Assembly (NCBI RefSeq): GCF_003018255.1
Contig: NZ_CP027440.1
Length of the DNA: 64,000 nt
Origin: Escherichia coli
GTDB lineage: Bacteria > Pseudomonadota > Gammaproteobacteria > Enterobacterales > Enterobacteriaceae
Direction: 5' to 3' (one strand)
Both the position numbers and the translations under genes were made by a program. Positions 21,931-24,785 of the stretch are shown one piece after another. Below the pieces are notes generated by a model. It was not told where the DNA came from, searched no databases, and saw nothing but the letters and a program-made list of their open reading frames with translations. Within the stretch, counting starts at the first letter, position 1; every line of letters begins with the position of its first letter.

Positions 21931-22311
21931 TCAGGCAACCTGTACCGGAATCGCTTTCGCGGTACGTTTCATTTCATTGTCGCCTTCAAAATAGGCGACG
22001 TTGGGTCGCCAGGTGCGAGCTTCTTCATCTGGCATAGTAACGAAGCTGGCGATGATGACAATATCGCCGACGCTGGCGCAGTGGGCCGCCGCACCGTTAA
22101 CGGAAATAATTCTCGAACCGCGTTCTGCCGCGATGGCATAGGTGGAGAAACGCTTGCCGTTGGTCACATTCCAGATATCAATGGCTTCGTTTTCGAGAAT
22201 ACCAGCTGCGTCAAGAAAATCCTGGTCAATGGCGCAAGAACCTTCATAGTGCAGGTCCGCATGAGTCACTTTCACGCGGTGGAGTTTGCCCTGCAGCATC
22301 GTGCGAATCAT
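21931..22311 (-). CDS. panD: aspartate 1-decarboxylase proenzyme
   Basis: [33 protein letters not shown]... (Gly24-Ser25 self-processing site present). Confidence 0.95.
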
Positions 22312-22584
22312 AACTTCTACCTTTCTACCCTGTCGTTAACGAAGCAGGCGATGCCTGCTTTGAGGAAATTCTCACGCAGTATTGCCCGATTTTTGTTTAG
22401 TGTCTACTCATCTGACGGCATTTGCATCAGCAGTTTGCGTACCGTGCCGAAGCGTGCCATGTAACGCCTGTAACCAATTGAAATTTCTCTGAACGCTGCT
22501 CGGTAAACAATAAAGAGGCGGCTGACGACGGCGCGCCTTGACTGGATACTGCCTTCACGCAAGACAACACGGAAGGCAGGGAAG

Positions 22585-23517
22585 ATGGATGCACCGAGTA
22601 CCACACCGCATGACGCGGTATTTAAACAATTTTTAATGCATGCGGAAACGGCTCGTGACTTTCTGGATATCCATTTGCCAGCGGAACTACGCGAACTGTG
22701 TGACCTCGACACGCTGCATCTTGAGTCGGGGAGTTTTATTGAAGAAAGCCTGAAAGGGCACAGCACTGACGTGCTTTATTCCGTGCAAATGCAGGGTAAT
22801 CCCGGTTATTTGCATGTGGTGATTGAACATCAAAGCAAGCCGGATAAGAAAATGACCTTTCGCATGATGCGCTATGCCATTGCCGCCATGCACCGGCATC
22901 TGGAGGCGGATCACGATAAGCTGCCGCTGGTGGTGCCGATTCTGTTTTATCAGGGCGAGGCCACACCTTATCCGCTCTCAATGTGCTGGTTTGATATGTT
23001 TTACTCGCCGGAGCTGGCGCGACGCGTCTATAACAGTCCTTTTCCGCTGGTGGATATCACTATCACACCGGATGACGAAATCATGCAGCACCGGCGGATC
23101 GCGATTCTCGAACTACTGCAAAAGCATATTCGCCAGCGCGACTTAATGTTATTGCTGGAGCAACTGGTCACGCTGATTGACGAAGGGTACACTAGCGGAA
23201 GTCAGTTAGTTGCCATGCAAAACTATATGCTGCAACGCGGTCATACTGAACAAGCGGATTTGTTTTATGGTGTGTTGCGAGACAGGGAAACGGGAGGGGA
23301 GTCTATGATGACGCTGGCGCAGTGGTTTGAAGAGAGGGGAAGACAGGAGGAAAGGCAGGAGGTAAGACAGGAGGTAAGACAGGAGGTAATACAAGAGGTT
23401 AGACAGGAAGTAAGACAGGAATTCGCCCTGCGTTTTCTGAGTAAAGGGATGTCTCGGGAAGACGTTGCAGAGATGGCAAATTTACCTCTTGCTGAGGTTG
23501 ATAAGCTGATTAGCTAA
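22585..23517 (+). CDS. rpnC: Rpn-family (YhgA-like, PD-(D/E)XK) recombination-promoting nuclease with repeat-rich C-terminal tail
   Basis: 310-aa ORF MDAPSTTPHDAVFKQFLMHAETARDFLDIHLP...; N-terminal nuclease-like D...EHQ.K motif; C-terminal (E/Q)VRQ repeats; K-12 YadD is 300 aa as I recall. Confidence 0.9.
   Translation: MDAPSTTPHDAVFKQFLMHAETARDFLDIHLPAELRELCDLDTLHLESGSFIEESLKGHSTDVLYSVQMQGNPGYLHVVIEHQSKPDKKMTFRMMRYAIAAMHRHLEADHDKLPLVVPILFYQGEATPYPLSMCWFDMFYSPELARRVYNSPFPLVDITITPDDEIMQHRRIAILELLQKHIRQRDLMLLLEQLVTLIDEGYTSGSQLVAMQNYMLQRGHTEQADLFYGVLRDRETGGESMMTLAQWFEERGRQEERQEVRQEVRQEVIQEVRQEVRQEFALRFLSKGMSREDVAEMANLPLAEVDKLIS
23343..23426 (+). repeat. seven imperfect 12-bp tandem units inside rpnC encoding RQEE/RQEV repeats
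   Basis: GACAGGAGGTAA-like units read directly from sequence. Confidence 0.85.
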
Positions 23518-23585
23518 GTTATCTGCATTATCAGTTATAGCCAGATAATTGTTATTGTTAACTGACCAGATAATTAAGGGAACAT

Positions 23586-23838
23586 ATGGAAATAAAGACA
23601 CGGAGAGAAACCAGGCAGACGTTGGCGCAGTGGTTTGAAGAGAAGGGATTTCAGAAGGGATTTCAGAAGGGATTTCAGAAGGGATTTCAGAAGGGATATA
23701 AAGAGGGGATATAAAGAGGGGCTCCGGAAGGTAAGGCTGGCCCAGCGTCTTCTGAGTAAAGGAATGTCTCGGGAAGACGTTGCAGAGATGGCAACTTTAT
23801 CTCTTACAGAGGTTGATAAGCTAATTAACTCTAACTAA
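23586..23838 (+). pseudogene. orphan Rpn C-terminal tail cassette, frame-disrupted by a 13-bp tandem duplication
   Basis: SD-like AAGGGA + ATG 23586; MEIKTRRETRQTLAQWFEEKGFQKGFQKGFQKGFQKGYKEGI* in one frame, ...RLLSKGMSREDVAEMATLSLTEVDKLINSN* in the +1 frame; 4 x AGAAGGGATTTC and 2 x GATATAAAGAGGG. Confidence 0.6.
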
Positions 23839-23933
23839 GTTGTCTGCGTTATGAATAATCGCTTACAGACGTCATCGCCATGACGTGGGGTAAATTAATA
23901 ACTGGCGCCATCAGCCGTAGCGCCAGATAAGGA

Positions 23934-24785
23934 TTACGCCAGTTCGACGATTTTGTTGTCGATCAGGCGAGCATCGCCAAGCCAGGCGGCTACCAGAATC
24001 ACTGCCCGTTTGCTGTTTTCAGAGACTTCCTGCAACGTGTCGGCATCACGAATCTGAATATCATCGGCGCGGAAGCCTTTTTCATTCAGTTCTTGCCCGG
24101 CAATAGCAATAATTTCATCGAGATCCCGTTCCCCAGCCTGCAATTTGTCGGCAATTGAACTTAAAACTTTGTACAGACCGGGCGCAATTTTGCGTTGTTC
24201 CGCCGTCAGATAACCGTTACGGGAACTCAGCGCCAGACCGTCTTTGGCGCGCATAATTGGCACACCGATAATCTCAATATCAAAGCCCATATCAGCAACC
24301 ATTTTGCGGATCAGCGCCAGTTGCTGAAAATCTTTTTCACCGAAGCAGGCGATGTCCGGCTGGACCAGATTGAACAGCTTGCTGACAATCGTCGAAACGC
24401 CGCGAAAATGTCCCGGACGGCTGGCACCTTCCAGCATGGTGGAAAGACCGGGAACATCAACATAGGTGTGGGTTTCTGTACCGTTCGGGTAGATCTCTTT
24501 TACCGAAGGCGCGAAAACTAGATCCACTTTACGTTTGTTCAGCTTTTCGCAGTCCTCTTGCAAGGTCCGTGGATAACGTGCCAGATCTTCCGGGCGGTCA
24601 AACTGCATCGGGTTAACGAAAATACTGACCACTACCACATCGGCGCGGGCTTTGGCTTCGTCGACCAGCTTCATATGGCCATCGTGCAGGTTACCCATGG
24701 TGGGCACCAGCGCCACGCGCTTACCTTCCATACGCAGGCGGCGAATTTGCTGACGCAGCAGCGGCAGGGTTTCGATAATTAACAC
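23934..24785 (-). CDS. panC: pantoate--beta-alanine ligase
   Basis: (M)[36 protein letters not shown]...; first codon reads GTG. Confidence 0.95.

What the first reader, a model, noticed from the sequence alone, without database searches (positions are those of the whole stretch)
23292..23517. Internal Shine-Dalgarno plus in-frame ATG inside rpnC could express the C-terminal tail as a separate ~70-aa protein
Within rpnC a strong SD-like GGGAGGGGAG (23292-23301) lies 3-4 nt upstream of tandem in-frame ATG codons (23305, 23308), exactly at the start of the conserved TLAQWFEE tail. The downstream orphan cassette has the same arrangement (SD + ATG at 23586). This is the organisation expected for an intragenic small protein co-encoded with the nuclease. 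I recall literature describing Rpn family proteins as toxic nucleases restrained by small proteins translated from internal starts in the same frame, with roles in phage defence; that recollection should be verified before relying on it.
Basis: partly seen in the sequence, partly recalled or inferred. Interest (0 to 1): 0.6.

Follow-up and report, generated by a model that had tools for sequence, protein, structure and literature searches.

The report
Known antitoxin start inside rpnC
The ribosome-binding site and in-frame ATGs inside the E. coli nuclease gene rpnC are real, but they are the already published start of RpnC-S, a small antitoxin made from within the toxin gene, so the finding is correct and not new.

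Summary
GGGAGGGGAG lies at 23292-23301. ATG 23305 and ATG 23308 are in frame with rpnC (22585-23517) and give a 70- or 69-aa product of about 8.3 kDa. This Shine-Dalgarno (SD) site is the strongest before any of 473 internal in-frame ATGs in the window.

Meydan et al. 2019 and Zhong et al. 2023 (PNAS) showed internal initiation in all five K-12 rpn genes. They detected tagged RpnC-S. They showed that the short RpnS proteins are antitoxins for the long RpnL nucleases. The window is base-for-base identical to K-12 around this start site.

In 64 homologues the Met and its SD are conserved. The family-wide start corresponds to ATG 23308. ATG 23305 is an extra codon in Escherichia RpnC.

The downstream "orphan" (23586-23838) is the published rpnC-Ss second copy. 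Here a 13-nt tandem duplication shifts its frame, leaving a 42-aa stub. The few genomes that share the duplication list it as a 'transposase'; the two whose records I opened mark it a frameshifted pseudogene.

Anti-phage activity has been shown only for a plasmid paralogue, not for RpnC.

Novelty: already known. Interest: low.

The parts
22585..23517 (+). rpnC (yadD) full-length CDS, RpnC-L, 310 aa: PD-(D/E)XK nuclease toxin
   Evidence: ORF list. Pfam Transposase_31 PF04754 over residues 7-207, E=6.4e-87. NCBIfam TIGR01784 Rpn family, 275 bits against a cutoff of 52. RefSeq annotates rpnC between panD and panC. The RpnA catalytic residues D11, D63, E82, Q84, R94 and the PDDEI motif align to identical residues D10, D62, E81, Q83, R93 and PDDEI.
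23125..23334 (+). Codons 181-250: stretch of suppressed synonymous variation that runs up to and through the internal start. Inferred to hold the internal promoter, 5' UTR and ribosome-binding site of the short transcript.
   Evidence: In 12 RpnC orthologues the mean pairwise synonymous difference is 0.058 here and 0.200 in codons 1-180 (Mann-Whitney p=1.8e-7, sequences not independent). This agrees with Meydan 2019 Fig. S4 for yadD and with the internal transcription start reported by Zhong 2023.
23165..23193 (+). Weak candidate internal sigma-70 promoter (TGGTCA, 17 nt, TACACT; 8 of 12 matches). Speculative.
   Evidence: Found only by a relaxed scan. The standard scan found no plus-strand promoter in 22300-23950.
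23292..23301 (+). Internal Shine-Dalgarno sequence GGGAGGGGAG
   Evidence: Sequence. Energy -10.8 kcal/mol, rank 1 of 473. GGG GAG at 23296-23301 aligns with RpnA codons K240 and E241, whose mutation, together with M244L, abolished RpnA-S. Unpaired in the centroid RNA fold.
23305..23307 (+). First in-frame ATG (M241), specific to Escherichia RpnC among the homologues sampled (also ATG in L071 and in three Pseudocitrobacter genes)
23308..23310 (+). Second in-frame ATG (M242): the family-conserved internal start, homologous to RpnA M244
   Evidence: Met in this column in 61 of 64 homologues. Aligns to RpnA M244. Position 1 of the tail profile aligns to residue 1 of the crystallised RpnA-S chain 7TH0_A.
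23305..23517 (+). rpnC-S small ORF (70 aa, or 69 aa from 23308), the intragenic antitoxin
   Evidence: AlphaFold2 model with mean pLDDT 87.8 and helices at 4-46, 51-57 and 62-69. The tail profile hits RpnA-S 7TH0 at E=2.8e-12.
23340..23420 (+). 12-nt tandem repeat (6.8 copies of AAGACAGGAGGT) encoding the four-residue repeats RQEV/RQEE in helix 1. Copy number varies between strains.
   Evidence: TRF. RpnC-S is 50, 58, 60, 66, 70 or 74 aa in other E. coli strains. In 52 of 64 homologues the tail length is 1 mod 4.
23576..23581 (+). SD-like AAGGGA of the downstream cassette
   Evidence: Energy -5.3 kcal/mol. The same energy was computed at the cassette start in all 12 E. coli cassettes examined.
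23586..23838 (+). rpnC-Ss, the stand-alone second copy of the antitoxin, frameshifted here. The first ORF 23586-23714 gives 42 aa. The C-terminal two-thirds continues in the +1 frame to 23838.
   Evidence: ORFs. Alignment with intact 65-75-aa alleles. Strain E04, identical over the whole cassette, and strain JNE112863 (one fewer 12-nt unit, a third 13-nt copy) are both annotated 'transposase, frameshifted' pseudogene.
23641..23697 (+). 12-nt repeat (GFQK, 4.8 copies) in the orphan cassette
   Evidence: TRF. There are 1-2 copies in the related intact alleles that carry this unit, and 3-4 in the frameshifted ones.
23693..23718 (+). Two tandem copies of the 13-nt unit GGGATATAAAGAG. The extra copy causes the frameshift.
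   Evidence: The exact configuration occurs in only 3 of 5,426 complete E. coli genomes, and 2 more align at 95.7%, one of them confirmed to carry three copies.

Best explanation
This is the internal translation start of rpnC-S. RpnC-S is the small antitoxin encoded in frame inside the toxic PD-(D/E)XK nuclease gene rpnC, a gene-within-a-gene toxin-antitoxin pair.

Ribosomes bind GGGAGGGGAG (23292-23301). They initiate at ATG 23308, the family-conserved codon, and/or ATG 23305. The published data indicate that this happens mainly on a shorter transcript that starts inside rpnC.

The product of 69 or 70 aa is a three-helix protein. Its long first helix carries the four-residue repeats. It pairs through that helix with the identical segment of full-length RpnC-L and blocks the nuclease's DNA-damaging activity. 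Both proteins are read from the same DNA, so their repeat numbers always match.

Shown in the literature for K-12 rpnC: the initiation peak, the tagged small protein, and repeat-number-specific suppression of SOS induction. Shown here: this window is identical to K-12 at the start site; the start codon and SD are conserved across the family; the tail is homologous to the crystallised RpnA-S; the nuclease active-site residues are intact. Inferred: the same expression and antitoxin action occur in this strain, with the complex architecture taken from the RpnA work. Not shown for RpnC anywhere: phage defence.
For: Coordinates and reading frame.

The SD is the strongest of 473 internal in-frame ATG contexts in the window and is stronger than rpnC's own start.

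The window is identical to K-12 rpnC from 23280 to 23335, with two synonymous differences in the 100 nt before that.

In 64 full-length homologues at 44-100% identity, a Met is always present at this site. Its SD has a median energy of -8.5 kcal/mol, against -1.5 for 670 other internal ATGs. 94% of the conserved sites reach -5 or lower, against 6% of the others.

Window M242 aligns with RpnA M244. Window G238 and E239 align with RpnA K240 and E241, the residues mutated to abolish RpnA-S.

The tail profile hits PDB 7TH0 (RpnA-S) at E=2.8e-12, starting at residue 1. The AlphaFold2 model is a three-helix protein with pLDDT 87.8.

The 12-nt repeat array is present, and RpnC-S lengths vary between strains in steps of 4 aa.

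Synonymous variation is suppressed in codons 181-250. The SD region is unpaired in the centroid fold.

Literature: PMC10400941; bioRxiv 10.1101/520783; PMC5350276 for RpnC toxicity and SOS induction.
Against: No expression data exist for this strain or for this QEVR-repeat allele. The K-12 allele has KGIE/KGIQ repeats.

No convincing internal promoter was found by consensus scanning. Only an 8-of-12 match turned up.

Foldseek against the PDB did not retrieve 7TH0. It gave only weak helix-turn-helix matches with E>0.5.

Pfam DUF4351, which labels RpnS in some species, does not match these tails. PADLOC has no model for this protein.

In the paper, the start-site knock-out mutations were made for RpnA, RpnB, RpnP2 and the C. 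difficile gene, but are not reported for RpnC. The comparative statistics use phylogenetically related sequences, so the p-values are inflated.
Confidence: 0.9

Rival explanations
1. The small protein is made from the internal start, but its main role is something other than neutralising RpnC-L. It could be a helix-turn-helix-like DNA-binding regulator of the locus, or a phage sensor.
For: The weak structural neighbours of the model are DNA-binding helix-turn-helix domains such as KorB, DeoR, resolvase and TrpR. Some tails hit HTH_7 or HTH_3 weakly. Zhong 2023 notes an HHpred relation to HTH motifs and allows for housekeeping roles. Many type II antitoxins also act as autorepressors (general knowledge).
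Against: Published RpnC-S blocks RpnC-L SOS induction in a manner specific to repeat number. RpnA-S blocks RpnA-L DNA cleavage in vitro and forms a complex with it (section headings and Fig. 4 legend of PMC10400941). All Foldseek E-values exceed 0.5. A regulatory role would add to the antitoxin role rather than replace it.
Confidence: 0.05
2. The SD-like run is only a by-product of coding for Gly-Gly-Glu, or a translational pause site. In this strain, little or no protein is initiated at 23305 or 23308.
For: SD-like hexamers do occur by chance inside genes. No expression data exist for this strain. No clear internal promoter was found.
Against: The sequence is identical to K-12, where initiation peaks and the tagged product were seen. 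The Met and SD are conserved in 64 of 64 homologues even though the amino acids encoded by the SD codons differ (GGE, HKE, HEE, QKE). Rare codons are used to spell the SD.
Confidence: 0.03
3. The small C-terminal species arises by proteolytic cleavage of RpnC-L rather than by internal initiation.
For: For RpnC specifically, the paper does not report a start-codon or ribosome-binding-site knock-out.
Against: Initiation-inhibitor profiling peaks mark initiating ribosomes, not cleavage. Knock-outs abolished the small protein for RpnA and for the C. difficile Rpn, and start-site mutant constructs lacking RpnB-S and RpnP2-S were built and used in the toxicity assays. RpnS proteins were detected at higher levels than RpnL proteins, and for RpnA and RpnD only the small form was seen.
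Confidence: 0.01

Closest known systems
RpnC-L / RpnC-S of E. coli K-12 MG1655 (rpnC = yadD, b0132); Zhong et al. 2023 PNAS, Meydan et al. 2019
   Same: Same gene at the same panD-panC locus. Same SD, the same tandem ATGs and the same MMTLAQWFEE start, with identical DNA from 23280 to 23335. Same domain organisation.
   Different: The alleles differ in the hypervariable helix. The window has RQEE/RQEV repeats and a 70-aa small protein. K-12 has KGIE/KGIQ and 60 aa. K-12 has no downstream second copy.
RpnA-L / RpnA-S (crystal structure PDB 7TH0)
   Same: Paralogue with 53% identity over the nuclease domain. The internal Met (M244) and the ribosome-binding-site codons align exactly with window M242 and G238/E239. 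The tail profile matches 7TH0 at E=2.8e-12. The predicted three-helix layout has a long first helix.
   Different: RpnA-S is 49 aa with no repeat expansion, and the tail sequences are divergent. In vitro cleavage inhibition and complex formation were shown for RpnA, not for RpnC.
rpnC-Ss and rpnE-Ss (ypaA): stand-alone downstream copies of the small gene
   Same: The cassette at 23586-23838 sits directly downstream of rpnC. It has its own SD and ATG and the TLAQWFEE...SKGMSREDVAEM tail, as described for some E. coli strains. A cassette covering at least 80% of it is present in about 1,261 of 5,426 complete genomes.
   Different: In this window a 13-nt duplication shifts the frame. Only a 42-aa N-terminal fragment is encoded, and in strain E04, identical over the whole cassette, it is annotated as a pseudogene.
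Other in-frame genes-within-genes (Cas10d/Cas11d, ArcB-C) and classical type II toxin-antitoxin pairs
   Same: A short protein translated from an in-frame internal start modulates the long protein. A protein antitoxin binds a protein toxin.
   Different: Here the antitoxin is a subsequence of the toxin, not a separate adjacent gene. Specificity is set by a shared repeat-length helix.

Membership tests
RpnL-RpnS intragenic toxin-antitoxin (Zhong et al. 2023) | The long protein has an N-terminal YhgA-like PD-(D/E)XK nuclease domain (Pfam PF04754 / TIGR01784 / COG5464) | tested here: met
   PF04754 over residues 7-207, E=6.4e-87. TIGR01784 at 275 bits, cutoff 52.
RpnL-RpnS intragenic toxin-antitoxin (Zhong et al. 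2023) | Nuclease active-site residues are retained (RpnA D11, D63, E82, Q84) | tested here: met
   BLASTP alignment with K-12 RpnA shows D10, D62, E81 and Q83 identical, plus R93 and PDDEI. The residue list comes from Kingston 2017.
RpnL-RpnS intragenic toxin-antitoxin (Zhong et al. 2023) | An in-frame internal start codon with an SD at the beginning of the variable C-terminal tail, at the position validated for RpnA-S | tested here: met
   Conserved in 64 of 64 homologues. M242 aligns to RpnA M244.
RpnL-RpnS intragenic toxin-antitoxin (Zhong et al. 2023) | The small protein is actually translated (initiation-inhibitor ribosome-profiling peak, tagged small species) | not testable with these tools
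   Shown for K-12 rpnC in the literature. The window DNA is identical at the site. No data exist for this strain.
RpnL-RpnS intragenic toxin-antitoxin (Zhong et al. 2023) | The tail is homologous to the RpnA-S three-helix bundle (PDB 7TH0) | tested here: met
   A profile of 63 tails hits 7TH0_A at E=2.8e-12 over chain residues 1-48. The AlphaFold2 model has three helices and pLDDT 87.8. Foldseek did not list 7TH0, so the support is from sequence profile and secondary structure, not from a fold-search hit.
RpnL-RpnS intragenic toxin-antitoxin (Zhong et al. 2023) | Four-residue (12-nt) repeats that start 8-20 residues after the initiating Met and vary in number between strains | tested here: met
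   A 12-nt array of 6.8 copies at 23340-23420, starting about 12 residues after the Met. E. coli RpnC-S lengths are 50, 58, 60, 66, 70 and 74 aa. Tail length is 1 mod 4 in 52 of 64 homologues.
RpnL-RpnS intragenic toxin-antitoxin (Zhong et al. 2023) | An internal promoter or transcription start gives a short transcript | tested here: inconclusive
   No plus-strand consensus promoter. Only an 8-of-12 candidate at 23165-23193. Suppressed synonymous variation in codons 181-250 is compatible with one. A transcription start is reported from dRNA-seq in the literature.
RpnL-RpnS intragenic toxin-antitoxin (Zhong et al. 2023) | RpnS neutralises RpnL toxicity or SOS induction | not testable with these tools
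   Published for K-12 RpnC, where only matching repeat numbers work. Not tested for this allele.
Anti-phage defence system | Reduces plaquing or infection by phage | not testable with these tools
   Shown only for plasmid RpnP2-LS in the literature. There is no PADLOC model hit for RpnC-L or RpnC-S.
Pfam DUF4351 (PF14261), the label of stand-alone RpnS in some species | Match to the PF14261 profile | tested here: not met
   No DUF4351 hit for the full protein, for the 70-aa tail, or for any of 63 homologous tails. This is not a defining feature of RpnS according to the paper, which says 'in some species'.
rpnC-Ss (stand-alone downstream antitoxin copy) | An intact ORF of about 65-75 aa with its own SD and ATG directly downstream of rpnC | tested here: not met
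   Position, SD, ATG and homology are all met. The ORF, however, is interrupted after 42 codons by a 13-nt duplication. It is annotated a frameshifted pseudogene in strains E04 and JNE112863.

The most novel reading that the evidence does not exclude
The 13-nt unit GGGATATAAAGAG in the downstream rpnC-Ss copy might be a slippage-prone switch that turns a second, non-cognate antitoxin on and off. One copy is in frame; two and three copies are out of frame and both are seen in nature; four copies would restore the frame. The 42-aa helix-1-only fragment might act as a decoy partner for RpnC-L or RpnC-S. Separately, the QEVR repeat allele places three consensus AGGAGGT sites and seven rare AGA/AGG codons inside the shared helix. 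That could tune the ratio of long to short protein at the level of translation.
Probability: 0.05. Interest if true: 0.4.

Novelty: already known. Interest (0 to 1): 0.1.

Why it matters
The biology is interesting: an antitoxin nested in frame inside its toxin, with specificity set by a repeat-length helix. It has been in print since 2019 and 2023, for this very gene.

This re-analysis adds little. It gives an independent comparative confirmation that the start codon and SD are conserved in 64 enterobacterial homologues. It shows that the second ATG is the ancestral start. It describes this strain's allele, which has a QEVR-type repeat helix and a recently frameshifted second antitoxin copy.

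The practical lesson concerns annotation. RefSeq still lists only the long CDS, and it labels the downstream copy 'transposase' or 'hypothetical protein'.

Tried and rejected
1. phmmer of full-length RpnC against PDB sequences found nothing relevant; the best hits were LapB and TrpR at E>0.2. The link to 7TH0 appeared only with a profile of 63 tails. In that search the higher-ranked pentatricopeptide and designed-repeat hits are artefacts: many individually non-significant repeat matches summed together.

2. Foldseek of the AlphaFold2 model against the PDB gave only weak helix-turn-helix neighbours (E>0.5) and did not list 7TH0. It is uninformative for a 70-aa helical protein dominated by one long helix.

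3. PADLOC had no model hit for RpnC-L or RpnC-S. The one hit to RmrA (E=0.0025, 14.6 bits), for an intact rpnC-Ss, was dismissed as noise.

4. Pfam on the tails found no DUF4351. The scattered weak hits (Yae1_N, DUF2802, HTH_7) reflect repeat or helical composition.

5. The consensus promoter scan found no plus-strand site in rpnC. A relaxed scan gave one 8-of-12 candidate, which I do not rely on.

6. The RNA fold of 23200-23345 shows no special structure (z=+1.2). It was used only to note that the SD is unpaired.

7. A supplement look-up for the exact RpnC-S N-terminus found no supplementary text held. Which of the two ATGs is used therefore remains an inference from homology.

8. I considered reading the orphan's two ORFs as a programmed frameshift. 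I rejected this because intact single-copy alleles exist, because 2-copy and 3-copy variants occur only in a handful of near-identical genomes, and because the two RefSeq records I opened (E04, JNE112863) mark them as frameshifted pseudogenes.

Full report
**Where we are.** The window is Escherichia coli DNA at the yadE-panD-rpnC-panC-panB locus. The ORF 22585-23517 (+) encodes a 310-aa protein. Pfam Transposase_31 (YhgA-like, PF04754) covers residues 7-207 at E=6.4e-87. NCBIfam places it in TIGR01784, 'Rpn family recombination-promoting nuclease'. RefSeq calls the same gene rpnC in the nearest genome, which is 99.7% identical over the 1.5 kb searched, and in K-12.

**Check of the observation.**
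- GGGAGGGGAG is at 23292-23301.
- ATG 23305 and ATG 23308 are in frame with rpnC.
- The stop is at 23515-23517.
- The product begins MMTLAQWFEE. It is 70 aa and 8.4 kDa, or 69 aa and 8.3 kDa from the second ATG.

I scored the anti-Shine-Dalgarno pairing energy upstream of every internal in-frame ATG in all window ORFs of at least 150 aa, 473 sites in total. The two rpnC ATGs rank first, at -10.8 kcal/mol. The median for internal sites is -2.4, and rpnC's own start scores -8.4. The SD is spelled with the rare codons GGA, GGG and GAG. Their joint probability from the window's codon usage is about 0.004. The feature is therefore real and not what chance would give.

**What it is.**

Meydan et al. 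[quoted passage not shown] Zhong et al. 2023 (PNAS, PMC10400941) reported the following:
- Onc112 and retapamulin peaks in rpnC.
- Chromosomally SPA-tagged RpnC-S detected by immunoblot.
- A transcription start inside every rpn gene.
- RpnS proteins acting as antitoxins that block the toxic RpnL nucleases.
- For RpnC specifically, RpnC-S suppresses RpnC-L-dependent SOS induction only when both carry the same number of four-residue repeats.

The window is identical to K-12 MG1655 rpnC over the 56 aligned bases from 23280 to 23335. That stretch includes the SD, both ATGs and the first nine codons of the small protein. Only two synonymous differences occur in the 100 bases before it.

**Independent comparative test.** A scan of one genome per species returned 73 loci encoding relatives. 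Of these, 63 were full length. Together with the window they gave 64 proteins at 44-100% identity.
- All 64 have a Met at this site. In 61 it is in the column of window M242. In three Pseudocitrobacter genes it is in the M241 column.
- The Met is preceded by GGAG, AAGGAG or GAGGAGG 6-9 nt upstream. The median energy is -8.5 kcal/mol, against -1.5 for 670 other internal ATGs in the same genes. 94% of the conserved sites reach -5 or lower, against 6% of the others. The Mann-Whitney p is 5e-37, but the sequences are related, so this is not a true probability.
- The amino acids encoded under the SD differ between lineages (GGE, HKE, HEE, QKE) while the purine-rich motif persists. That points to selection on the RNA signal.
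- Window M242 aligns with RpnA M244. Window G238 and E239 (GGG GAG, 23296-23301) align with RpnA K240 and E241. Those are exactly the residues Zhong et al. changed to abolish RpnA-S.

The family-wide start is therefore ATG 23308. ATG 23305 is an additional codon in Escherichia RpnC. Which one is used here cannot be decided from sequence.

Among 12 RpnC orthologues, synonymous diversity falls from 0.200 in codons 1-180 to 0.058 in codons 181-250 (p=1.8e-7). This fits an embedded promoter, 5' UTR and ribosome-binding site. I could not locate the promoter convincingly.

**The small protein.** A profile of 63 homologous tails matches the crystallised RpnA-S (PDB 7TH0_A, 49 aa) at E=2.8e-12, and the match starts at residue 1. 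The AlphaFold2 model has mean pLDDT 87.8. It has a long helix at residues 4-46 followed by two short helices at 51-57 and 62-69. This agrees with the published three-helix bundle, whose first helix forms the dimer interface and holds the repeats. Foldseek gave only weak helix-turn-helix neighbours.

The 12-nt array at 23340-23420 has 6.8 copies and encodes RQEE/RQEV repeats. Other E. coli strains have RpnC-S of 50, 58, 60, 66, 70 and 74 aa. In 52 of 64 homologues the tail length is 1 mod 4. This is the published four-residue quantisation.

The nuclease part looks active. The residues equivalent to RpnA D11, D63, E82, Q84, R94 and the PDDEI motif are all identical.

**Mechanism.** The long protein is a PD-(D/E)XK DNA endonuclease. 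When over-produced it is toxic and induces the SOS response (Kingston 2017). The short protein is translated from 23308 and/or 23305. It binds the identical C-terminal segment of the long protein through helix 1 and blocks it. Both are read from one DNA segment, so repeat numbers always match.
- Shown for K-12 RpnC: translation of the small protein and repeat-specific suppression of SOS induction.
- Shown only for RpnA: inhibition of DNA cleavage in vitro and complex formation.
- Inferred for this allele: all of the above.
- Shown only for plasmid RpnP2: phage defence. PADLOC has no model for the family.

**The downstream cassette.** A cassette covering at least 80% of it occurs in 1,261 of 5,426 complete E. 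coli genomes. K-12 lacks it.

In other strains it is an intact ORF of 65-75 aa. In this window the 13-nt unit GGGATATAAAGAG is present twice (23693-23718). The frame shifts, and the ORF stops after 42 codons at 23712-23714. The closest intact allele, from strains 266917_2 and SB0258h1, has the same C-terminus but two GFQK units and one 13-mer. The window has four GFQK units and two 13-mers.

The exact window configuration is found in only 3 of 5,426 genomes. Two more align at 95.7%; one of them, JNE112863, is confirmed to carry three copies of the 13-mer. All five are labelled 'transposase' in the hit list. The two whose records I opened, E04 and JNE112863, are annotated as frameshifted pseudogenes. 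So the second copy is a recent pseudogene in a small clade. It does not parallel the intragenic start in function.

**Verdict.** It is already known, so interest is low. The residual unknowns are all experimental:
- which ATG is used;
- where the internal promoter lies;
- whether chromosomal RpnC defends against any phage;
- whether the truncated orphan or its slippage-prone 13-mer has any role.

Noticed in passing
window 23693-23718 (within 23586-23838): A tandem duplication of the 13-nt unit GGGATATAAAGAG frameshifts the downstream rpnC-Ss copy. Strain JNE112863 has three copies, and intact alleles have one. The 13-mer has therefore slipped at least twice in a small clade. Four copies would restore the frame.
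   Followed up: partly
window 23641-23697: The orphan's 12-nt GFQK unit is expanded to 4.8 copies. The related intact alleles that carry this unit have 1-2 copies. So repeat expansion is continuing in a copy that is already a pseudogene.
   Followed up: partly
window 23340-23420: The QEVR repeat unit CAGGAGGTAAGA contains the consensus SD AGGAGGT. Three of the five AGGAGGT heptamers in the whole 64-kb window lie here (23357, 23369, 23381). Seven of the nine Arg codons in RpnC-S are the rare AGA or AGG. No start codon follows these SD-like sites. A possible effect on elongation or on the ratio of long to short protein was not tested. The K-12 allele (KGIE repeats) lacks this feature.
   Followed up: partly
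window 23125-23334: Synonymous variation among 12 RpnC orthologues is suppressed over about 70 codons ending just past the internal start. The suppressed stretch is much wider than an SD alone. This suggests that the internal promoter and 5' UTR are embedded here. Only a weak TGGTCA/17/TACACT candidate (23165-23193) was found.
   Followed up: partly
window 23541-23550 and 23566-23575: A 10-bp direct repeat, CCAGATAATT, occurs twice, 25 bp apart, in the spacer between rpnC and the orphan cassette, just upstream of the orphan's SD. Its function is unknown.
   Followed up: no
window 23555-23527 (minus strand): A sigma-70-like site (ATAACA, 17 nt, GATAAT; 9 of 12 matches) points antisense into the 3' end of rpnC. 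The scan found 3 such sites in this 1.65-kb region, against 1.8 expected by chance, so it may be nothing.
   Followed up: no
window 23902-23926: A GC-rich hairpin with a T-run on the minus strand, immediately after the panC stop, is probably the panC terminator. No terminator-like site separates rpnC from the orphan cassette on the plus strand, so the two are probably co-transcribed.
   Followed up: no
L084 (E. coli ws5-3) 522-1393 and 1462-1671: In this strain rpnC itself is annotated as frameshifted, while a 69-aa downstream Ss ORF remains open. RefSeq annotates only part of that ORF. This would be a case of the toxin decaying while an antitoxin copy survives.
   Followed up: no
L066 (contig CALXDF010000219.1): A 4.3-kb contig binned as an 'uncultured Oscillospiraceae' metagenome-assembled genome carries a 97%-identical 3' part of E. 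coli rpnC. It is most likely a mis-binned E. coli contig.
   Followed up: no
RefSeq annotations of the locus (L001, L003, L004, L078-L083): The same downstream small gene is variously named 'RpnC/YadD family protein', 'hypothetical protein', 'transposase' or 'ISNCY family transposase'. The intragenic rpnC-S is not annotated in any record examined, K-12 included.
   Followed up: yes
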